A stretch of 64,000 bases of DNA, from positions 1,335 through 65,334 of the IMG/VR virus record IMGVR_UViG_3300030060_004467; one strand, 5' to 3'. The notes under the pieces are model-generated. The model was not told the origin of the DNA, ran no database searches, and was given only the letters and a program-made list of their open reading frames with translations. Positions 14,877 to 22,862 of the stretch are shown one piece after another. Within the stretch, counting starts at the first letter, position 1. Each line of letters begins with the position of its first letter. Both the position numbers and the translations under genes were made by a program. The stretch is from a virus. Its lineage: Duplodnaviria; Caudoviricetes.

Positions 14877-15287
14877 TTATTTAATTGTTTCTTTAATAAA
14901 GTATTGTGCTGCAAAGTACTCGCTAAGCACGTCGAATAGTTCAACTACGCGACCTGAAAAATTACGGAACGTTGATGCGCTATCAAGCCTCTCATCTTGA
15001 TCAATACCCAGATTGTCAAGCATATCTTGTTGCTCTATCATAGCCTCGATGTCTGATACAATCTCTGAGTTGAGTTCTTCAACCGCCTCTTTGAAGTTAT
15101 CTACGATAATGTCAGGGTTCATGAATGCCCATTCTTTAAGTCCATACTCACCTATATCAACAAGAATAATCTTTCGTGCTACCATAGCGGGCCTCACGTT
15201 GTCGGGTAGGTATTCCTTGAGAAAGGAATTAACCTTGTCTTGTGTTAGTGGTTTGGTAAGGAATCGGAATCCTTCGTCGTTAGTCAT
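14877..15287 (-). CDS. Hypothetical protein
   Basis: Acidic 136-aa ORF. Confidence 0.6.
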   Translation of the reverse strand: MTNDEGFRFLTKPLTQDKVNSFLKEYLPDNVRPAMVARKIILVDIGEYGLKEWAFMNPDIIVDNFKEAVEELNSEIVSDIEAMIEQQDMLDNLGIDQDERLDSASTFRNFSGRVVELFDVLSEYFAAQYFIKETIK

Positions 15288-15426
15288 TGGCTTGTGTGTT
15301 TTTTTGTTTCAACAATTTTTTAATTAGTCTTTGCATCTTTCGCCTTCGGTGGCGTGGGGATCGTAGCTCGTCGTTGCCGAGCACCTCGGACATCTGCTTT
15401 GTCCCCTGTCTGGTTTTTTTACCCAT
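15280..15426 (-). CDS. Small basic protein (48 aa, not in ORF track)
   Basis: MGKKTRQGTKQMSEVLGNDELRSPRHRRRKMQRLIKK...; fills the gap with overlaps at both ends. Confidence 0.45.
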   Translation of the reverse strand: MGKKTRQGTKQMSEVLGNDELRSPRHRRRKMQRLIKKLLKQKNTQAND

Positions 15427-15826
15427 ATATTTTTCTTTTAGATGTGGTTAGGATTAGGAATGTCTTGCCGTCGCAGTTTATGTCCTCTTCAGTAAACCAA
15501 TGTGGATTCTTTTTGGGGTTGTACTTGTAATGAGTTAGCACGTGCTCTTCAACCTCTCTGAACTTGGGGTCTTTTCGGTATTCGATGTCAATGTTGTCGC
15601 AGTCCACCCAAGCGCATACTGTTTTATTATCACCCTCAAATATCTTGCGGGCAGTTGATTCCTGATTGCCCAACTTGCATTTGTACATTTTGATATTGCA
15701 CTTCTCGGGATTGTAGTATTCGGTATTAACCCAAGAGGGTGTGCGTTGCACCCCTCTGTCTTTCACTTGCCACATCTTATAGTTTTTACCTTTTCCGAGG
15801 TGAAATCTTACTCTAAATCTTTTCAT
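15419..15826 (-). CDS. Conserved-looking phage hypothetical protein
   Basis: 135 aa with RFHLGKG, KTVCAWV and YNP motifs. Confidence 0.6.
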   Translation of the reverse strand: MKRFRVRFHLGKGKNYKMWQVKDRGVQRTPSWVNTEYYNPEKCNIKMYKCKLGNQESTARKIFEGDNKTVCAWVDCDNIDIEYRKDPKFREVEEHVLTHYKYNPKKNPHWFTEEDINCDGKTFLILTTSKRKIYG

Positions 15827-16440
15827 TGTTCGTTTTCTTCTTGGTCGTCAACCCCGTGGATGCGGCACTCGAACTTCTCGTTTGCACATAGTGTGCCGAG
15901 GGCATCAATAGCTCTCTCTTCGGAGTAGTCCCCGCACTTGCCACGCATCCAGTCCGTGTCAATGTGTTCGTTGAGGTCGATGTCACGCTCGAATGTGACG
16001 TGAAAGTCACCGACGTATTCGCTCTCTTCGATGCGGACGTAGGTGGCCTCGTCAATCTCTGTACATGCGGCCTCCACCCCGTGTTGCACACCCTCACGGA
16101 AGATGGCGATGGCAACAGCCTTGGGGATGACGGGCATAGTAGGGGCGCACACCTTGTCAAGGCGTAGCTTGTCTTTGAGTTTATCGTACTCCTTCTTCCA
16201 AGCATTGGCGTTGGCTGTCTTGACGGTGAGGTCACGCTCCAACTGCTTGATGTCGTCGTACTGACCCTGCACCTTAGATTCGAGCTCGGCCTCACGTCCT
16301 GTCTGCTCGGAGTATTGCTTCTTAGCCATCTCTTGACGGAACTCCATCGACTCGATGGTTTGCTTGGCAGATGAGATAGCGTTTTCTGCATAGCGGATAG
16401 CCGCGTCAAGCTCGTTCTTAGATTCTTCTATTGAATTCAT
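15823..16440 (-). CDS. Coiled-coil acidic hypothetical protein
   Basis: 205 aa, heptad-rich N-terminus, 4-nt overlaps with neighbours. Confidence 0.65.
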   Translation of the reverse strand: MNSIEESKNELDAAIRYAENAISSAKQTIESMEFRQEMAKKQYSEQTGREAELESKVQGQYDDIKQLERDLTVKTANANAWKKEYDKLKDKLRLDKVCAPTMPVIPKAVAIAIFREGVQHGVEAACTEIDEATYVRIEESEYVGDFHVTFERDIDLNEHIDTDWMRGKCGDYSEERAIDALGTLCANEKFECRIHGVDDQEENEQ

Positions 16441-16631
16441 TTGTTCTTAGGTTTTTTTAGTTTGAGTTTTAATTGTTCTGCCGCGTAATTGATGTGTCTT
16501 TGTGTTGTTACTGATACGATACCTGCTAGTTGTTGCAGGGTGTCACCCTCAATGAGAGCGACAGGTGTCCCGTAGCTGACAACGTAGCCGTTGGTTGTCC
16601 ATAGGTTTTGTTTGTATCGTGGGAATCTCAT
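16437..16631 (-). CDS. Hypothetical early protein
   Basis: VSYGTPVA and SVTTQRHIN motifs of a common small phage family. Confidence 0.6.
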   Translation of the reverse strand: MRFPRYKQNLWTTNGYVVSYGTPVALIEGDTLQQLAGIVSVTTQRHINYAAEQLKLKLKKPKNK

Positions 16632-16855
16632 GTTAGTCCGTTCAGTTCTGCTTTGTCGGTGATTCTGCCGTCACGCTCAAGCCACCCGTCATCGATCATG
16701 GCAGACGCCGTGCGTCCGTAGTGACCCTGTAAGCTCCACGCCATGCCTGTCTTGATAAGCTCAGAGAAAAGCCGAAGGGTTTTTACATCGTTGAGATGAC
16801 CCATCTCGTAGTCGATGATGCGGTTGGTTACGTCGTATGCTTTAGCGTTCTTCAT
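16628..16855 (-). CDS. Hypothetical early protein
   Basis: LIKTGMAWSLQGHYGRTA motif; ATG at 16855. Confidence 0.6.
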   Translation of the reverse strand: MKNAKAYDVTNRIIDYEMGHLNDVKTLRLFSELIKTGMAWSLQGHYGRTASAMIDDGWLERDGRITDKAELNGLT

Positions 16856-17084
16856 TGTCTGTAAATTTTGGGGATAGCTCCATGATGTACTGAGCCACAA
16901 GCTCTTCGATGTCTTCGACCACATTGTCTACATCATTGTGTGTGAGGCCGTACTCATCAATCATCATATTGGACAGGCGGTTGTAGCCACTCTCAACACC
17001 GCCTGACATGGAATATCCAACGTGGTTGGTGTTGAAGCAGTTGCTGACGTAGCACCGCAGGTCGTATAAGGTTTCTTCACTCAT
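16842..17084 (-). CDS. Hypothetical early protein
   Basis: Acidic 80 aa from ATG 17084. Confidence 0.55.
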   Translation of the reverse strand: MSEETLYDLRCYVSNCFNTNHVGYSMSGGVESGYNRLSNMMIDEYGLTHNDVDNVVEDIEELVAQYIMELSPKFTDNEER

Positions 17085-17286
17085 TGTCTTCGATTTGTGT
17101 CCATTTGAAAATAAAGTCTTCGAGGTCATTGGCAAGGTTCTCCATGTCGCTGTGGAGTACCACCTCTTCGCGGTCAACGAGTAGCTTGTGCAACTCCTTG
17201 TATGCACCTGTTTCATTGAGCACATAGCTGATGCGCTCGATAAGTTCTTGCCTCTGCTCGTCGTCGTAGTTGATTGTGTATTTCAT
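17077..17286 (-). CDS. Hypothetical early protein
   Basis: Acidic 69 aa from ATG 17286. Confidence 0.55.
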   Translation of the reverse strand: MKYTINYDDEQRQELIERISYVLNETGAYKELHKLLVDREEVVLHSDMENLANDLEDFIFKWTQIEDNE

Positions 17287-17948
17287 GAGATAAAGTTTAC
17301 GTTTTTGTCCATCCACTCTCTAAGGTCGTCCGCAATGGGTTTGATTTTGATTGGTTCGTCATAGCTGTCTGACCCCTTGGGTTTGGGGATACGGAAAGCG
17401 TGCATCACGTAGTCGTCGATGTCTATGAAGGCGTGGTTGCCCATGTACACACTTTGGATGAACTCCGTGAGTTGATACATATTGCCGTGGTGGTCCGTGT
17501 ACTTGCCTGTGTTGTCTTGCACATCTGATGCTACACGGGCCACCAAGGACATACACAAGGGGGTGTAGTCCCATGCTTGGGAGGCATCGAGTTGGTCCCA
17601 CGTCAGCCACATGTGCTCGGTAGAGTCACTGCGGTTGGACATGTCAACCTCGATGATTCGGAACACCTCGACACTTACGTCGTCGCCGTTCTCTGCCACC
17701 CAGTCGTCGTGGTCCATGTCATGTGGTACACAAGCGTGGTAGTCCTCGTACTGACGAGTCATGGTGACGCAGATGTTTGTGGGGTCTGAGTCGTCAATCT
17801 CTACGCACATCTTGTCCTTGCGGTAGCCGCTGAGGATTTGCTTGATATGTTTGTCTGCAAGCTCCCGCTTGGGGAAGAACTCACAGGTGGTGTCGGAGTA
17901 CCCTTCGAAGAGTCCTGCGACAGCGTGTATTACCGCGTATTGCTTCAT
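17283..17948 (-). CDS. Hypothetical early protein
   Basis: 221 aa from ATG 17948, downstream of a promoter and an AAACTTCAA leader. Confidence 0.65.
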   Translation of the reverse strand: MKQYAVIHAVAGLFEGYSDTTCEFFPKRELADKHIKQILSGYRKDKMCVEIDDSDPTNICVTMTRQYEDYHACVPHDMDHDDWVAENGDDVSVEVFRIIEVDMSNRSDSTEHMWLTWDQLDASQAWDYTPLCMSLVARVASDVQDNTGKYTDHHGNMYQLTEFIQSVYMGNHAFIDIDDYVMHAFRIPKPKGSDSYDEPIKIKPIADDLREWMDKNVNFIS

Positions 17949-17982
17949 GGTTATTGAATTGAAGTTTGTAAAAGTCTCGACA

Positions 17983-18040
17983 CAAAGATACGGAATTGAT
18001 GTGGACAATTCCAAATTTTTGTTGAAAAGATTTGTTAACG
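17983..18040 (-). promoter_or_regulatory. Bacteroidota sigma-A-type early promoter with 30-bp upstream repeat
   Basis: Minus strand TTTG-N21-TATCTTTG; 18011-18040 matches 19937-19966 at 29/30. Confidence 0.7.
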
Positions 18041-18049
18041 GGTTGGTTA

Positions 18050-18121
18050 GAAGGGAGGTTGGGAGTTGAACACAACTGCCATCTGCCAAAACTCAGATGT
18101 ACGCACCGACTGCGCTCCCTT
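18050..18121 (-). ncRNA. Non-canonical tRNA-like element A
   Basis: Acceptor AAGGGAG/CTCCCTT; D-like CGCA-gtcgg-TGCG; anticodon-like CATCTG-agttttgg-CAGATG; T-like GTTGTG-TTCAACT-CCCAAC. Confidence 0.55.
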
Positions 18122-18127
18122 GAAGAA

Positions 18128-18196
18128 GGTGGGGGGATGGACTGACGTTTCAGTCCGTTGCATCCAATCGAATTGCATCCCGAAAGGCGTCCCCCC
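18128..18196 (-). ncRNA. Non-canonical tRNA-like element B
   Basis: Closing stem GGGGGGA/TCCCCCC followed by ACC; internal hairpins including GGACTGA-aacg-TCAGTCC and TGCA...TGCA; no TTC loop. Confidence 0.4.
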
Positions 18197-18213
18197 TATG
18201 GTCAAACTTCAAA

Positions 18214-18423
18214 CTAACCAATACCGCTTACGATGTCCATCGCTTTGGTCATCGCGTAAGTTCGTTTTTGCATCCCTGTACCTTCAAGCTGAGGTGACGG
18301 GAGATTCACAAATGTAGTGAATGCGCCCTCATCATCCAAACGATCGATTTTATAGTTATCCTCACCCCTCATAATCGCATCTGCCATAGCGTTGGTGTGG
18401 TAAATCCTTTCTTGAAGTGTCAT
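18214..18423 (-). CDS. Hypothetical early protein
   Basis: 69 aa with AAACTTCAA leader. Confidence 0.55.
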   Translation of the reverse strand: MTLQERIYHTNAMADAIMRGEDNYKIDRLDDEGAFTTFVNLPSPQLEGTGMQKRTYAMTKAMDIVSGIG

Positions 18424-18560
18424 TTCTCTTGTTGTTTTGAAGTTTGATATTTGTCGTATGCTTTTTCCACGGCAGTGTTGAGAGCCTCTGCCTGTGCTCT
18501 GTCGATAGCCTGTCCCTGCATACGGGATAGCTTGACAATTACTTCGATGATGTTATCCAT
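18420..18560 (-). CDS. Small hypothetical protein (46 aa, not in ORF track)
   Basis: MDNIIEVIVKLSRMQGQAIDRAQAEALN...; coupled overlaps. Confidence 0.45.
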   Translation of the reverse strand: MDNIIEVIVKLSRMQGQAIDRAQAEALNTAVEKAYDKYQTSKQQEK

Positions 18561-18735
18561 GGCTATCTCTTTCTTTTGGTGTTAATTCAAAGTTTACGTC
18601 CCATGTGGCCTCGCAGTCTTCGCACTCATAATCGTGCTCTATCTGGACGTATCCGTTGTTGGTATACCCTACTTCTTGTGAGCCTAAGTATACTCCTTGA
18701 CCGCCACACTTGTGGCACTTATCGTAATCGTTCAT
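18553..18735 (-). CDS. Zinc-ribbon protein
   Basis: CHKC and CEDC pairs in 60 aa. Confidence 0.6.
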   Translation of the reverse strand: MNDYDKCHKCGGQGVYLGSQEVGYTNNGYVQIEHDYECEDCEATWDVNFELTPKERDSHG

Positions 18736-18878
18736 TTTAAATCAAATTGTGTGTTTTTGAAGGCCTCTTGAAGGCGAGCCTTATTGCCGTGGTCTGCTTT
18801 GAACCACGCCTCGATGAGGGCTTTCTCGAAACTCCCGCAGTTCTGAGAGCGTATGTTCAGTCGTTCGTATTGTGTCAT
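18732..18878 (-). CDS. Small hypothetical protein
   Basis: GSFEKALIEAWFKADHGNKARL motif; ATG at 18878. Confidence 0.55.
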   Translation of the reverse strand: MTQYERLNIRSQNCGSFEKALIEAWFKADHGNKARLQEAFKNTQFDLK

Positions 18879-19087
18879 TTGTCTTTTGTTTGGGTTTTGA
18901 GCGGTGGAAGTGTGCTCCACCATACAATCTCTTCGTCGTGGATGCGGAACTCGTGGCAAGCCCCGAGGTCGTTGTTCCACACCTCAATCCATACGCCGTG
19001 GTCGTCAGGAGCACCCATTACGTGGGATGCGTAGTGACCCGCATCTTGCAGTGCTTTGACTGCTGATTCGCATTGTTCTTGTGTCAT
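18875..19087 (-). CDS. Hypothetical early protein
   Basis: 70 aa with 4-nt overlaps. Confidence 0.55.
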   Translation of the reverse strand: MTQEQCESAVKALQDAGHYASHVMGAPDDHGVWIEVWNNDLGACHEFRIHDEEIVWWSTLPPLKTQTKDK

Positions 19088-19398
19088 AGGTCAATGATTA
19101 CGCCCTTCTCTTCGAGGGCTTTGATGATGTAGTCAGGGAGTTCGAAGCATCCATCGTACCCTGTGAGGCGTACACTTCCGTCGTCGTCGTGCTCGGTTTC
19201 GAGCACACCCTCTGCATAGAAGCGGTCGCCTCCTGATTCGAGGTCGTAGGTCTCATACCATCCGCCGTAGCGGTGGTCAGGGTCGATAGCCACCTCGGTG
19301 TCCATCTCTACGTTCTTCGCGGCGTCAACGTCTACGTCGTAGGCCGTCCGCATTGACACGAAGGGTAGTGTGTGTTTGAAGGAGTGTGTGAATTTCAT
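19084..19398 (-). CDS. Acidic hypothetical early protein
   Basis: 104 aa with LTGYDGCFELP motif. Confidence 0.6.
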   Translation of the reverse strand: MKFTHSFKHTLPFVSMRTAYDVDVDAAKNVEMDTEVAIDPDHRYGGWYETYDLESGGDRFYAEGVLETEHDDDGSVRLTGYDGCFELPDYIIKALEEKGVIIDL

Positions 19399-19646
19399 TC
19401 TGAAAATAGTTTGTTCTCGGTTGCTATCGCTTCTGTGGCGTGGTCATCCAAGACGTTGATGATTTGCTGAACTGTGTCGGGGCTAACGTTGGGTGCATTA
19501 GCGATGAGAGAGGCAAAGCCCTGCACATCCTTTGGCACCATTTGTGCGGCTCGATTGAGCACATCGAGGTTCTTACCAAAGTGGAAGTCGTTGAGGTATA
19601 GCACCGCCGCACCTACGGGACGTGAGAAAAAATTATCTTTTACCAT
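19395..19646 (-). CDS. Hypothetical early protein
   Basis: 83 aa with AAACTTCAA leader. Confidence 0.55.
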   Translation of the reverse strand: MVKDNFFSRPVGAAVLYLNDFHFGKNLDVLNRAAQMVPKDVQGFASLIANAPNVSPDTVQQIINVLDDHATEAIATENKLFSE

Positions 19647-19673
19647 TGTATTGGATTTGAAGTTTAATGTTTA

Positions 19674-19886
19674 TTATCTGAGGAGGTCATCAAGTTGCTT
19701 CTCAAGTCGCACGATTGCCTCGTCTGCACGGCGTGAAATGTCGTCCTGTTCCTTGATTGCTTTCTTGGTTGCCTCGATAAGAGCCTTGCGCTCCTCGGTG
19801 AATGTGATGAATGACTGCTCTACTTGGTGGAGCGAATCGCATACGAGTGTGCCTTTGGCAGAGGCTCTCAACTTTGAAGTGTCCAT
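19674..19886 (-). CDS. Coiled-coil early protein
   Basis: 70 aa from ATG 19886 after a promoter and leader motif. Confidence 0.55.
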   Translation of the reverse strand: MDTSKLRASAKGTLVCDSLHQVEQSFITFTEERKALIEATKKAIKEQDDISRRADEAIVRLEKQLDDLLR

Positions 19887-19909
19887 TGTATTGGGTTTGA
19901 AGTTTGGTG

Positions 19910-19966
19910 TAAAGATATAGGATTTTGTGGATGAATCCAAATTTCTGTTGAAAAGATTTGTTAACG
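19910..19966 (-). promoter_or_regulatory. Early promoter with 30-bp upstream repeat
   Basis: TTTG-N20-TATCTTTA plus the repeat shared with 18011-18040. Confidence 0.65.
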
Positions 19967-19967
19967 C

Positions 19968-20132
19968 TTAGTAATCACGGGTCGTGATATTGAATTCACG
20001 TAGGTCGATGTATATGTCCTCGTCCCACGCAGCCTCGATAAGGCGTAAAGCCTCCTTGTCGTCCGTGTATGTGAAGTTCTCGTAGGCGAGAATTTTCTCC
20101 TCTGCGTTTAACTCTCTGAATGGATTAAACAT
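19968..20132 (-). CDS. Small acidic protein (54 aa, not in ORF track)
   Basis: MFNPFRELNAEEKILAYENFTYTDDKEALRLIEAAWDEDIYIDLREFNITTRDY; starts 25 nt after the HHR1 cleavage site. Confidence 0.6.
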   Translation of the reverse strand: MFNPFRELNAEEKILAYENFTYTDDKEALRLIEAAWDEDIYIDLREFNITTRDY

Positions 20133-20151
20133 AGCTTGAAGTTTGAAGTTT

Positions 20152-20201
20152 GATACAGACCCCCGAAGGGGTTTCGTCCAATCAGGACTCGTCAGTGTAC
20201 C
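20152..20201 (-). ncRNA. Type I hammerhead ribozyme HHR1
   Basis: gguaca-CUGACGA-gucc(ugauu)ggac-GAAA-cccc(uucg)gggg-UC/uguauc; predicted cleavage after C at 20158. Confidence 0.93.
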
Positions 20202-20368
20202 TTGATGATTTCTGTTAAAGCACCTTCGATGCTGTCTTGCAGGTCAAATGTGTCTTGTGTGTACTCTCCGTTCACCTCGCGAACGTCGTCGCTCAGGAGT
20301 TCAGGCGCGTTGTCCAACAGGTATTCTGTGACGAGGATAGCCACGTCTTTGATGTCATTCGTTGTCAT
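20192..20368 (-). CDS. Small acidic protein (58 aa, not in ORF track) flanked by HHR2 and HHR1
   Basis: MTTNDIKDVAILVTEYLLDNAPELLSDDVREVNGEYTQDTFDLQDSIEGALTEIIKVH; its stop TGA is the UGA of the HHR1 core. Confidence 0.65.
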   Translation of the reverse strand: MTTNDIKDVAILVTEYLLDNAPELLSDDVREVNGEYTQDTFDLQDSIEGALTEIIKVH

Positions 20369-20389
20369 TGTATGTAGTTTTTGAAGTTT

Positions 20390-20439
20390 GACACAGACGC
20401 CTCACGGCGTTTCGCGCACTCAGCGCTCGTCAGTGTGCC
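20390..20439 (-). ncRNA. Type I hammerhead ribozyme HHR2
   Basis: ggcaca-CUGACGA-gcgc(ugagu)gcgc-GAAA-cgcc(guga)ggcg-UC/uguguc; predicted cleavage after 20396. Confidence 0.93.
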
Positions 20440-20441
20440 TG

Positions 20442-20621
20442 TCAGATAGGGTCGAAGTACCTGCGAATCTCCTGCTCCGCACGCTCGTCCTCTGCGTCGT
20501 CAGCCCCGATGAGGTCAGCCAACGTCAGGTGTGCGTCCGTGAAGTGGGTGGACACGATGTCCTGCACGATGGTGGTGAGGGCTTGTACGCGCCCCTCGTG
20601 CGCTTGCTTGGAAGTAGCCAT
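20442..20621 (-). CDS. Small acidic early protein (59 aa)
   Basis: MATSKQAHEG...RYFDPI from ATG 20621; stops 2 nt before HHR2 stem I. Confidence 0.6.
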   Translation of the reverse strand: MATSKQAHEGRVQALTTIVQDIVSTHFTDAHLTLADLIGADDAEDERAEQEIRRYFDPI

Positions 20622-20641
20622 TGTGTTGAAGTTTGATGGTC

Positions 20642-20685
20642 GCAAGATACGACCGAATTGTGGAAAAAACAAGTCTGTCTGTTAA
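20642..20685 (-). promoter_or_regulatory. Possible weaker early promoter
   Basis: TTG...TATCTTGC with upstream TTAAC; imperfect match to TAnnTTTG. Confidence 0.35.
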
Positions 20686-20704
20686 GTCGCTGTGACTCAG
20701 GGAA

Positions 20705-21403
20705 TTACAAGATGTCGTCGGCAGTCACGCCCTCGTCCATCATATCCATATTCACGGCACGTAACATATCCATCACGTCCGTGTACCCTTGCTCGCGCAG
20801 TACCGCGTAGGGTGTGGGTGCTACGTAGTCCGCAGGGTGTTGCGCTTTCGCCTTTGGCGCGGGTGCGTCAACCTCCGTGCGTGTGCCGAATGGCGATGCC
20901 GCCGTTGGCTTGTTGTCGCACACGACCTCGGTCTTGCGAACGTTACGCTTGGCGCTCGCTCGGTTGCTCAGGCGTTGTGCCTGTGCCTCCAACTTGTCGT
21001 TCTTGGTCTTGCGCTTGGTCTTCGTGCGCTTGGGTGCGGGCTTCTTTGGGTCGGTCAGCACCAACCCGCCCAACTCGCGCTCCAACTGCTCGACTGCCTT
21101 GCGCTCAACCTCCGTGATGTCGCTCACGGGGGTGTACGTGTTGGCCGTTTGACAGGCGTCCACGATGTCGAACATCTGCTCCATCGTCAGCCCGTACTGC
21201 TTGCACAGCACGTCCGCACGGGACTGCTTCGCAGTCGTGGCTTTGGCTTTGCGTTTGGGCTTGGCCGTCTTGGGCTTCGCGCTCTTGCGCTTGGCCGCTT
21301 GCTCCTGTGCGAACTTAGCCTTGTTAGCGGCTCTGCGCTCAGCTCGTGTGTACTTGCGCCCTGTCTCGGGGCAGTGTGTGGGGGTGTAGGTCTTTGCAGA
21401 CAT
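20705..21403 (-). CDS. Lys/Ala/Arg-rich (histone H1-like) early protein
   Basis: 232 aa from ATG 21403; AKRKSAKPKTAKPKRKAK and KKPAPKRTKTKRKTK tracts; acidic C-terminus. Confidence 0.65.
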   Translation of the reverse strand: MSAKTYTPTHCPETGRKYTRAERRAANKAKFAQEQAAKRKSAKPKTAKPKRKAKATTAKQSRADVLCKQYGLTMEQMFDIVDACQTANTYTPVSDITEVERKAVEQLERELGGLVLTDPKKPAPKRTKTKRKTKNDKLEAQAQRLSNRASAKRNVRKTEVVCDNKPTAASPFGTRTEVDAPAPKAKAQHPADYVAPTPYAVLREQGYTDVMDMLRAVNMDMMDEGVTADDIL

Positions 21404-21443
21404 AGGTAAAAAGTTTGAAGTTTTGGACTGCGCTTCGTGCGCT

Positions 21444-21493
21444 GACACAGACCCCCGTAGGGGTTTCGGCTACTCAAGCCTCGTCAGTGTGCC
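21444..21493 (-). ncRNA. Type I hammerhead ribozyme HHR3
   Basis: ggcaca-CUGACGA-ggcu(ugagu)agcc-GAAA-cccc(uacg)gggg-UC/uguguc; predicted cleavage after 21450. Confidence 0.93.
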
Positions 21494-21499
21494 TGTGCG

Positions 21500-21673
21500 T
21501 CACTTGCTCATTCGCTCCCGCGCCTCTTCGAGCAGGGCTTGGTGCTCCATCTCCGTGTGCGAGCCGTGAATCAAGGCGTTCAGAATCTCGTCGTCGGTCA
21601 TGGTGCGCAAGGCAAAGTAGTTCGCAGACCCGCTCGTGCGGATGCTCTCGGTGGTTGGTGCTGTGGTATTCAT
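21500..21673 (-). CDS. Small protein (57 aa, not in ORF track) flanked by HHR4 and HHR3
   Basis: MNTTAPTTESIRTSGSANYFALRTMTDDEILNALIHGSHTEMEHQALLEEARERMSK; AAACTTCAA leader. Confidence 0.6.
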   Translation of the reverse strand: MNTTAPTTESIRTSGSANYFALRTMTDDEILNALIHGSHTEMEHQALLEEARERMSK

Positions 21674-21694
21674 AGTGCTTTGTGTTTGAAGTTT

Positions 21695-21744
21695 GACACA
21701 GACGCCTCACGGCGTTTCGTCCATTAAGGACTCGTCAGTGTGCC
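21695..21744 (-). ncRNA. Type I hammerhead ribozyme HHR4
   Basis: ggcaca-CUGACGA-gucc(uuaau)ggac-GAAA-cgcc(guga)ggcg-UC/uguguc; predicted cleavage after 21701. Confidence 0.93.
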
Positions 21745-21884
21745 TTGACGCCCTGCATCTTCGCCAAGATGTCTTTGGCGCGTGCCAGTTCCGCTCGTGT
21801 GGCTTCCGTGCCGTAGGCGTAGTGCGCTTCTGCGGCTCCGTTCACGTATGCGACTGCTGTTTTGATGTTGTGGGGAGTGTACAT
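21735..21884 (-). CDS. First early gene, 49-aa protein
   Basis: MYTPHNIKTAVAY...MQGVKAH; its stop TGA is the UGA of the HHR4 core. Confidence 0.6.
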   Translation of the reverse strand: MYTPHNIKTAVAYVNGAAEAHYAYGTEATRAELARAKDILAKMQGVKAH

Positions 21885-21932
21885 TGTGCGTGTGTTTGAA
21901 GTTCTTCGATTCGACCGTCGAACCGATGCCCC

Positions 21933-21979
21933 CAAAGATAGGTAAATCAAACGGCTGTGTCAAGCCAACGGATGTTAAC
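21933..21979 (-). promoter_or_regulatory. Promoter of the ribozyme-containing early operon
   Basis: TTG-N20-TATCTTTG with upstream GTTAAC, as in the other early promoters. Confidence 0.65.
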
Positions 21980-22574: not shown

Positions 22575-22862
22575 ATGAAGGTAAAAAAGAGAGATCCGAA
22601 GGTAGGAACGGGTAAAAAGCCCAAGGGATCGGATCGTAGGCTCTATACAGACGAGAATCCTAAGGATACGGTAGGTATTAAGTTCGCCACACCTGCCGAT
22701 GCACGGGCCACAGTAGCTAAAGTGAAGCGTAGCGGTAAGCCTTTTGCTAGAAAGATCCAGATATTAACCGTGGGGGAGCAGCGAGCTAAGGTTATGGGTA
22801 AGAATGAGGTGGTGCGTATATTTAAATCAGGCAAAGAAGCTATAAGGCGTAGTAGAAAATAG
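22575..22862 (+). CDS. Basic hypothetical protein
   Basis: 95 aa with RLYTDENPKDT motif. Confidence 0.65.
   Translation: MKVKKRDPKVGTGKKPKGSDRRLYTDENPKDTVGIKFATPADARATVAKVKRSGKPFARKIQILTVGEQRAKVMGKNEVVRIFKSGKEAIRRSRK

What the first reader, a model, noticed from the sequence alone, without database searches (positions are those of the whole stretch)
20152..21744. Four hammerhead ribozymes punctuate the phage early operon
Seen in sequence: four 50-nt elements on the coding (minus) strand. Each has the full hammerhead core CUGACGA...GAAA...UC, the G10.1-C11.1 pair, a 6-bp stem I and 4-bp stems II and III. The stems covary: stem II is gucc/ggac, gcgc/gcgc or ggcu/agcc, and stem III is cccc/gggg or cgcc/ggcg, closed by UUCG, UACG or GUGA tetraloops. 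This points to selection on structure rather than simple duplication. Each lies at a gene junction, with GUC cleavage sites at 21701, 21450, 20396 and 20158, which are 27, 46, 27 and 25 nt before the next ATG. Established: type I hammerheads self-cleave to give 5'-OH and 2',3'-cyclic phosphate ends, and hammerheads have been reported in phages. Inference: the phage uses self-cleaving RNA to cut its earliest polycistronic transcript into defined short mRNAs, a protein-free analogue of RNase III processing of T7 early RNA.
Basis: partly seen in the sequence, partly recalled or inferred. Interest (0 to 1): 0.95.

Follow-up and report, generated by a model that had tools for sequence, protein, structure and literature searches.

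The report
Four hammerhead ribozymes between phage genes
Four small self-cutting RNA motifs (hammerhead ribozymes) sit between the first small genes of an uncultured marine phage and probably chop its early messages into single-gene pieces, a layout first described for phages in 2011.

Summary
Four 50-nt type I hammerheads lie on the minus strand at 21744-21695, 21493-21444, 20439-20390 and 20201-20152. Each has the full core and all 15 pairs. My descriptor finds exactly these four; 2 of 500 simulated windows gave any hit. Relatives keep the fold: 22 distinct copies, 330 of 330 pair cells paired, 8 of 15 pairs with compensatory changes. Each copy sits in a short gap after a stop codon. In 16 of 22 it is followed at once by the leader CAAACTTCAA, with an ATG 21-30 nt after the cut in 20 of 22. 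The window is a complete 65-kb phage record related to Flavobacteriia phages. Best reading: self-cleavage splits host-transcribed early messages into single-gene mRNAs. No RNA ends were available, so cleavage is inferred. Rfam models score the elements below threshold. Perreault et al. 2011 described and tested this layout. This scan has noted such arrays on other DNA (275 notes, at least 230 genomes). It is a clean new member of a known kind. A cultured relative, Flavobacterium phage elemoA_7-9A, carries the same unannotated module.

The parts
21695..21744 (-). Hammerhead A (type I). The cut is 3' of C17 at 21701. The UGA stop of g1 (21737-21735) lies inside the CUGA core.
   Evidence: R1 82.9 bits
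21444..21493 (-). Hammerhead B (type I). The cut is 3' of C17 at 21450. The g2 stop lies 15 nt before C3. A 20-nt extra spacer precedes the leader, and the ATG of g3 follows 46 nt after the cut.
   Evidence: R1 78.8 bits
20390..20439 (-). Hammerhead C (type I). The cut is 3' of C17 at 20396. The g4 stop lies 11 nt before C3.
   Evidence: R1 83.2 bits
20152..20201 (-). Hammerhead D (type I). The cut is 3' of C17 at 20158. The UGA stop of g5 (20194-20192) lies inside the CUGA core.
   Evidence: R1 82.9 bits
21735..21884 (-). g1, a 49-aa ORF with no Pfam match and no homologue in the fetched relatives.
21500..21673 (-). g2, a 57-aa ORF with no Pfam match and no homologue in the fetched relatives.
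20705..21403 (-). g3, a 232-aa Lys/Ala-rich ORF, conserved in the closest relatives at 71% aa identity.
20442..20621 (-). g4, a 59-aa ORF, 97% identical in relative G002.
20192..20368 (-). g5, a 58-aa ORF. Its homologue in relative L221 (68% aa) again lies directly after a diverged hammerhead.
19968..20132 (-). g6, a 54-aa ORF with homologues in 12 fetched loci.
21935..21963 (-). Promoter-like site P1 (TTGACA, 17 nt, TATCTT, continuing as TATCTTTG) upstream of g1.
   Evidence: a consensus match only
20643..20685 (-). Promoter-like site P2 (TTG..TATCTTG) between g3 and g4. No hammerhead lies at this junction.
   Evidence: my reading of the sequence, not tested
21896..21903 (-). Leader motif AACTTCAA before g1. 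Further copies before g2-g6 lie at 21686-21693, 21415-21422, 20626-20633, 20381-20388 and 20136-20150.
   Evidence: 17 window matches against 3.68 expected; 0 of 100 shuffles reach 17

Best explanation
The four elements are active type I hammerhead ribozymes. They are built into the intergenic spacers of two host-transcribed units of small, probably early, genes in a marine phage whose host is probably a member of the Flavobacteriia. As RNA polymerase passes each spacer, the 50-nt motif folds and cuts itself 3' of C17. The upstream message then ends in a compact ribozyme with two tetraloop-capped hairpins and a 2',3'-cyclic phosphate. The downstream message starts with a 5'-OH, six nucleotides of stem I, the leader CAAACUUCAAA, and an AUG about 25 nt from the new end. 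Each small gene thus becomes its own mRNA, and its stability and translation no longer depend on its neighbours. Shown here: motif, structure, covariation, placement and conservation. Inferred: cleavage, its timing, and its effects on stability and translation.
For: The core and stems are complete in 4 of 4 copies. Chance is excluded (4 hits, against 2 of 500 simulated windows with any hit). A model built from the four finds 1-2 copies in 16 of 36 related IMG/VR records, and in 11 of the 20 that are at least 90% complete. In the 22 distinct copies, 330 of 330 pair cells are standard pairs. Eight of 15 pairs show changes on both sides. No shuffle of 500 reaches the observed percentage paired or covariation score, and slid registers pair only 23-50% of cells. 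The core is invariant except N7 (C or U), the position that the family definition leaves free (definition in PMC3088659). Placement is constant. The upstream frame stops from 29 nt before C3 to inside the core in 22 of 22 copies. The ATG follows 21-30 nt after the cut in 20 of 22. AACTTCAA starts exactly 7 nt after C17 in 16 of 22. The same leader follows the promoter-like sites P1-P4, so the cut puts the leader near a 5' end, as in a primary transcript. A distant cultured relative, elemoA_7-9A (terminase 41% identical), has the same module with a compensated stem I (GGCAAA/UUUGUC) and the ATG of gp69 28 nt after the cut. Precedent: tandem prophage hammerheads gave the expected cleavage products in vitro and in E. 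coli (PMC3088659).
Against: There is no RNA-end or expression evidence. The only RNA run held one 234-nt contig, which reaches just 9 nt past cut site C. Rfam hammerhead models score below their gathering thresholds. I found no loop II-stem I tertiary contact or pseudoknot. Loop II (U-N-N-N-U) does not covary with the leader (my reading), so the rate at cellular Mg2+ is unknown. With 60-120 nt of flank, the nearest-neighbour model gives all 15 pairs a probability of only 0.000-0.11, although that model ignores core tertiary energy, co-transcriptional folding and ribosomes. One measure, further pair types, does not exceed the shuffles (430 of 500 reach it). That alignment was also fitted to the model's structure. 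One leader (19664) follows a plain stop codon with neither a ribozyme nor a promoter, so the leader works without a nearby 5' end.
Confidence: 0.75

Rival explanations
1. The hammerhead-plus-leader units mainly serve as shared junction sequences for gain, loss and exchange of small gene cassettes among related phages. Ribozyme activity is kept only so that each incoming cassette brings its own 5'-end maker. This can hold together with the processing reading.
For: The closest relatives, G001 and G002 (primase 93-94% identical), lack the whole g1-HH_A-g2-HH_B block. The 470-nt difference is bounded by the two AACTTCAAAC copies. They carry one hammerhead after g4, followed by a different gene in place of g5-HH_D. 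Copy number ranges from 0 to 4 among relatives. g1 and g2 have no homologue in the 105 fetched loci.
Against: Simple recombination repeats would not need an invariant catalytic core, nor compensatory changes in all three stems. The module is also kept in a phage as distant as elemoA.
Confidence: 0.12
2. Cleavage is coupled to translation of the upstream gene. A ribosome stopping at a UGA inside or just before the core unfolds the 5' strand of stem I, so cutting reports on, or is gated by, upstream translation.
For: The stop codon is the UGA of the CUGA core in 2 of 4 window copies and in 5 of 22 overall. All other stops lie within 29 nt upstream. Flanking coding sequence competes with stem I in thermodynamic folds.
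Against: The position of the stop varies (+1 to -29), as expected from simple compaction of short spacers. There is no alternative conserved structure and no data. Co-transcriptional cutting may well precede the first ribosome.
Confidence: 0.07
3. Fragments excised between two ribozymes (g2, 251 nt; g5, 238 nt) are circularised or joined to other fragments. This would happen by reverse hammerhead ligation or by an RtcB-type ligase, giving circular or spliced early RNAs.
For: Stem I is identical in A, B and C. The 5' end left by one cut can therefore pair with the ribozyme at the 3' end left by the next. The ends produced, 5'-OH and 2',3'-cyclic phosphate, are substrates for ligation (established chemistry).
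Against: Perreault et al. looked for circular or spliced products from tandem prophage hammerheads and detected none (PMC3088659). The contig laid shows no joint. Most relatives have only one copy, which cannot excise a fragment.
Confidence: 0.04
4. These are decayed or chance look-alikes with no function.
For: Rfam scores are below threshold.
Against:: the motif is far beyond chance, the core is invariant, and 330 of 330 cells pair across 22 diverged copies.
Confidence: 0.02

Closest known systems
Clustered hammerhead ribozymes flanking single genes or short gene blocks in prophages and phages (Perreault et al. 2011, PLoS Comput Biol, PMC3088659; passages read, supplements not seen)
   Same: Several same-strand hammerheads lie in intergenic spacers of small phage genes of varied identity. 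The proposed role is the same: cutting long phage transcripts into single-gene mRNAs.
   Different: Here the carrier is an uncultured phage related to Flavobacteriia phages, and no integrase was looked for. All copies are one compact type I subfamily (6/4/5 bp) fused to a non-Shine-Dalgarno leader. The examples named in the passages I read are from Clostridium, Azorhizobium and Agrobacterium prophages. Nothing here has been tested at the bench.
Hammerhead ribozyme, type I (Rfam RF00163, clan CL00010)
   Same: The core C3-A9, G12-A14, A15.1-U16.1 and C17 match, as do three helices with an open stem I and the G10.1-C11.1 pair.
   Different: The score is 20.9 bits against a gathering score of 34 for D, and the other three are not reported by that model. 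No stem I internal loop exists to meet loop II.
RNase III processing of phage T7 early mRNA
   Same: A polycistronic early transcript made by host polymerase is cut at intergenic structured sites into gene-sized mRNAs with hairpin-capped 3' ends.
   Different: Here no protein is needed. The ends differ chemically (5'-OH and 2',3'-cyclic phosphate rather than 5'-phosphate and 3'-OH). T7 processing is shown by experiment, whereas this is inferred.
Type I hammerheads in 5' UTRs of fungal and plant RNA viruses that enable cap-independent translation (Lopez-Galiano et al., NAR 2026, PMC13725137; abstract only)
   Same: A type I hammerhead lies directly upstream of a viral ORF, leaving a short 5'-OH leader.
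   Different: Those are eukaryotic hosts and RNA genomes, and the need for cleavage in translation was shown by reporter assays. No such test exists for any phage that I found.

Membership tests
Hammerhead ribozyme class | Conserved core: C3 U4 G5 A6 N7 G8 A9, G12 A13 A14, A15.1-U16.1, H17 (criteria as listed in PMC3088659) | tested here: met
   Met in 4 of 4 window copies. Met in 22 of 22 distinct copies in relatives, with only N7 varying between C and U. Met in elemoA.
Hammerhead ribozyme class | Three helices around the core, supported by covariation | tested here: met
   Pair cells are standard pairs in 60 of 60 and 330 of 330. Pairs with changes on both sides number 5 of 15 and 8 of 15. 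Slid registers pair 23-55% of cells. The alignment was fitted to the model.
Hammerhead ribozyme class | No mispair next to the core (10.1-11.1, 1.1-2.1, 15.1-16.1) | tested here: met
   G-C, A-U (U-A in 4 relatives) and A-U in all 22 copies (pairs 16-28, 8-58, 32-56).
Hammerhead ribozyme class | Tertiary contact between loop II and stem I (loop-loop or pseudoknot) for fast cleavage at cellular Mg2+ | tested here: inconclusive
   Stem I is open after 6 bp. Loop II is a 5-nt U-N-N-N-U loop. By my reading there is no covariation with either flank. The conserved unpaired A before stem I and AAA after it could serve, but this is untested.
Hammerhead ribozyme class | Self-cleavage 3' of H17 giving 5'-OH and 2',3'-cyclic phosphate | not testable with these tools
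   This needs in-vitro transcription or end-specific RNA-seq.
Rfam RF00163 Hammerhead_1 / RF00008 Hammerhead_3 | Bit score at or above the curated gathering threshold | tested here: not met
   No hit at gathering thresholds. D scores 20.9 against 34, A scores 28.7 against 48.5 in a permuted reading, and B and C are not listed.
Clustered phage hammerheads (Perreault 2011) | Two or more same-strand hammerheads flanking single genes in a phage gene block | tested here: met
   Four copies flank g2 and g5 and bound g1, g3, g4 and g6. The record is a phage (terminase, portal, primase).
Clustered phage hammerheads (Perreault 2011) | The ribozymes lie on one polycistronic transcript | not testable with these tools
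   Only promoter-like consensus sites are available. No minus-strand terminator-like site lies between 19968 and 21884.

The most novel reading that the evidence does not exclude
In these phages, whose hosts appear to start translation without a Shine-Dalgarno sequence, the hammerhead may be a translation device and not merely a cutter. Cleavage would place the conserved leader CAAACUUCAAA 7 nt from a fresh 5'-OH end. This copies the position the leader has just downstream of promoters P1-P4 (about 5-29 nt after the TATCTTKN element, my reading). Internal genes would then need the cut to be translated efficiently. That would be a bacterial counterpart of the ribozyme-dependent translation initiation reported in 2026 for RNA mycoviruses. 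The module would also act as a portable substitute for a promoter, letting cassettes move between phages.
Probability: 0.15. Interest if true: 0.75.

Novelty: new member of a known kind. Interest (0 to 1): 0.33.

Why it matters
The biological purpose of bacterial and phage hammerheads is still called undefined in the 2019 review I read in part (PMC6765202). This family offers a clean natural set for study. It is one compact ribozyme fused to one leader, present in 0 to 4 copies among close relatives. It also occurs in a cultured phage-host pair, elemoA_7-9A on Flavobacterium sp. BAL314, where cleavage, mRNA stability and translation could be measured directly. Two practical points follow. Standard Rfam annotation misses these elements. 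In the elemoA RefSeq record the ribozyme lies under an annotated 35-aa opposite-strand ORF. As a discovery it is ordinary, because the layout and its proposed role date from 2011 and this scan has met it many times.

Tried and rejected
Rfam at gathering thresholds reported no hammerhead in the window. It reported no ribozyme of any class in 8 relatives' loci (138 kb) that lack the hammerhead. Those loci may not reach the early region.

The type III reading of element A, from the Rfam Hammerhead_3 match, was rejected. It deletes stem I and relies on a chance upstream GGCGUC.

I considered a pseudoknot between loop II and the leader (UGAA with UUCA) and rejected it. Loops UUAAU, UGUAU and UCAGU, and the two copies without the leader, do not fit it.

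RNA evidence: one RNA run (X1, oligo-dT library, 6% of the sampled words) gave a single 234-nt contig over 20387-20616. It reaches 9 nt beyond cut site C and shows neither ends nor strand. I count it neither for nor against cleavage.

DNA search of the 2.2-kb region against GenBank phages found no match. A 74-nt query at E<=10 gave only 19-28-nt chance matches.

A scan of 185,579 species genomes for the stem III-stem I-leader pattern found 0 hits. The host is therefore not identified that way.

Four of 5 named Flavobacteriia phage records had no significant match to the model, and Larrie scored only E 0.26. The loose core pattern on those records was no better than its backwards control.

The sigma-70 scan flags a different hexamer pair near P2 (TTAACA..CACAAT) from the one I read. 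Promoter assignments are therefore provisional.

A literature search for elemo or Flavobacterium phage together with hammerhead listed 3 papers, and none of them holds the word hammerhead. The supplements of Perreault 2011 (Dataset S1 alignments, Figures S1-S6) were closed. This subfamily may already be in their alignments.
Full report
WHAT IS THERE. The window is nearly all of a 65,334-bp IMG/VR virus record rated 100% complete. It encodes a large terminase, a portal, a virion protein, a primase/helicase and an exonuclease. The nearest named phages all infect Flavobacteriia (Flavobacterium, Cellulophaga, Maribacter, Tenacibaculum, Nonlabens). Terminase identity reaches 41-48% and primase identity 35% at most. 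Minus-strand genes run from about 22,000 down to about 8,800, and plus-strand genes start near 22,575. The finding therefore lies at the head of the minus-strand arm, next to the divergent switch region.

THE FOUR ELEMENTS. Read on the minus strand, each element has the same layout. It begins with GG(C/U)ACA, followed by CUGACGA. Next come a 4-bp stem II with a 5-nt loop, GAA, and a 5-bp stem III that starts with A15.1-U16.1 and is capped by GUGA, UACG or UUCG. C17 follows, then UGU(G/A)UC. The elements span 21744-21695, 21493-21444, 20439-20390 and 20201-20152. C17 lies at 21701, 21450, 20396 and 20158. All 60 pair cells are standard pairs, and 5 of 15 pairs change on both sides among just these four copies. 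A, B and C fold into the three-way junction as their minimum-energy structure, and D keeps 10 of 15 pairs.

CHANCE. I wrote a type I descriptor requiring the core and stems I >=4, II >=3 and III >=4 bp. It returns exactly these four on the minus strand and nothing on the plus strand. Two of 500 second-order Markov simulations of the window gave a single hit. An earlier version of the script missed B and D because of a loop-length bug. The looser core pattern gave 18 nested matches against 5.2 expected.

RFAM. At curated thresholds Rfam 15 sees only a tRNA-Arg in the window. In E-value mode D matches Hammerhead_1 at 20.9 bits against a gathering score of 34. A matches Hammerhead_3 at 28.7 bits against 48.5, through a permuted reading that has no stem I. 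B and C are not listed. By Rfam's own membership rule these are not hits. By the structural definition of the class they are complete.

RELATIVES. The primase/helicase brought in 80 related IMG/VR loci. A covariance model built from the four elements found 1-2 copies in 16 of 36 related records, and in 11 of the 20 that are at least 90% complete. No record had more than two, so the window's four is the highest count seen. The 28 matches collapse to 22 distinct sequences. On these, 330 of 330 pair cells are standard pairs and 8 of 15 pairs change on both sides. No shuffle of 500 reaches the observed pairing or covariation score, and registers slid by 1-3 columns pair only 23-50% of cells. Two cautions apply. 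One measure, further pair types, is not above the shuffles (430 of 500 reach it). The alignment was also fitted to the model. The catalytic core is invariant apart from N7.

PLACEMENT. In all 22 copies the longest upstream frame stops between 29 nt before C3 and the UGA inside the CUGA core. The latter holds for 5 of 22 copies, including A and D. A downstream ORF starts 21-30 nt after the cut in 20 of 22. The exceptions are B at 46 nt, and one relative where the script picked an in-frame ATG inside stem I; by my reading the next ATG there is at 25 nt. AACTTCAA begins exactly 7 nt after C17 in 16 of 22, variants occur in 4, and 2 have none.

The same leader also follows four promoter-like sites, P1-P4, each ending in TATCTTT or TATCTTG, and once follows a plain stop codon. 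From recall, TAnnTTTG is the Bacteroidota -7 promoter element; I did not check this in a paper.

The layout reads as P1-g1-HH-g2-HH-g3 and P2-g4-HH-g5-HH-g6, followed by P3. The ribozymes occupy exactly those junctions that lack a promoter.

VARIATION BETWEEN RELATIVES. The two closest relatives lack the whole g1-HH_A-g2-HH_B block, and the difference is bounded by two copies of the leader. After g4 they carry a single hammerhead, like C in one relative and 98% like D in the other, followed by a different gene. A g5 homologue at 68% identity in a more distant relative again sits directly behind a hammerhead, one with altered stems. The units therefore behave as exchangeable cassettes while the ribozyme fold is maintained.

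A CULTURED EXAMPLE. Of five named Flavobacteriia phage records, one has a significant match: Flavobacterium phage vB_FspP_elemoA_7-9A (48.3 bits, E 5.7e-10). The element lies at 17287-17349 on the minus strand, between gp67 and gp69, underneath an annotated 35-aa opposite-strand ORF called gp68. It has a compensated stem I and the same UUAAU loop II as element A. The leader CAAACTTTAAA follows, and the gp69 ATG lies 28 nt after the cut.

HOW COMMON THIS IS. My descriptor found 82 type I hammerheads in them. Eleven loci had two or more on one strand, and two loci had four. Of the 82 hits, 74 had an ORF of at least 40 codons starting within 200 nt downstream, and in 48 of those 74 it starts roughly 20-39 nt after the cut. 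Only 1 of the 82 carried this family's leader.

Perreault et al. 2011 stated that multiple hammerheads often flank single genes in prophages and may process long phage transcripts into single-gene mRNAs. They saw the expected products for three tandem arrangements in vitro and for one in E. coli, and they did not detect circular or spliced products (passages only). A 2019 review still calls the purpose undefined. Earlier notes of this scan describe arrays of 5, 13 and about 24 hammerheads in other phages.

MECHANISM AND LIMITS. The best reading is co-transcriptional self-cleavage that yields single-gene mRNAs with a ribozyme-capped 3' end and a short 5'-OH leader. What is missing is any RNA evidence, since the single contig is uninformative. 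I also found no identifiable tertiary contact. With long flanks the thermodynamic model prefers competing folds. Rival or additional roles are scored separately: cassette junctions, translation-gated cutting and RNA ligation. The boldest reading not excluded is that the cut is needed for translation of the downstream gene in hosts that do not use a Shine-Dalgarno sequence, by analogy with a 2026 report on RNA mycoviruses (abstract only).

VERDICT. This is a clean, well-conserved new member of a known kind, with a tractable cultured relative for testing.

Noticed in passing
window 15091-21903, minus strand: The leader motif AACTTCAA (usually CAAACTTCAAA) lies 3-12 nt before the ATG of at least ten small minus-strand genes. 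The window has 17 matches against 3.7 expected. The motif follows promoters, hammerheads or a plain stop codon, and a variant occurs in the distant phage elemoA. It is not a Shine-Dalgarno sequence. It could be a translation enhancer or an operator for a translational repressor.
   Followed up: partly
L248 1776-1883 (NC_055852.1 17275-17382): In the RefSeq record of Flavobacterium phage elemoA_7-9A, a 35-aa hypothetical protein (gp68) is annotated on the strand opposite a complete hammerhead. It is probably a spurious ORF covering an unannotated ribozyme.
   Followed up: partly
ARAGORN calls no tRNA there, and Rfam gives no tRNA match at E<=10. The stems are visible in the sequence, but their nature is open.
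   Followed up: partly
window 19911-19960 and 17984-18035, minus strand: Promoter-like sites P3 and P4 share a repeated block of about 50 nt (ttaacaaatcttttcaaca.aaatttgga..). On the plus strand the P4 copy reads as a hairpin plus T-run and gives a weak sub-threshold match to the Bacteroidetes sRNA family FopS (19.6 bits against a gathering score of 56, E 1.2).
   Followed up: no
window 21424-21893: The g1-HH_A-g2-HH_B block is absent from the two closest relatives, and the indel is bounded by direct repeats of the leader motif. g1 and g2 have no homologue in the 105 fetched loci of relatives.
   Followed up: partly
window 20705-21403, minus strand (g3): This 232-aa protein is rich in Lys/Ala/Pro basic repeats (KPKTAKPKRKAKA, KRTKTKRKTK). 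It has no Pfam family above threshold and may bind nucleic acid.
   Followed up: no
L009, L107, L035, L074 (IMG/VR loci): Unrelated phage contigs carry 3-4 type I hammerheads at 150-800-nt spacing. Within each contig stem I is nearly constant and a contig-specific leader precedes the ATG. Ribozyme-plus-leader modules therefore seem to be a general design.
   Followed up: partly
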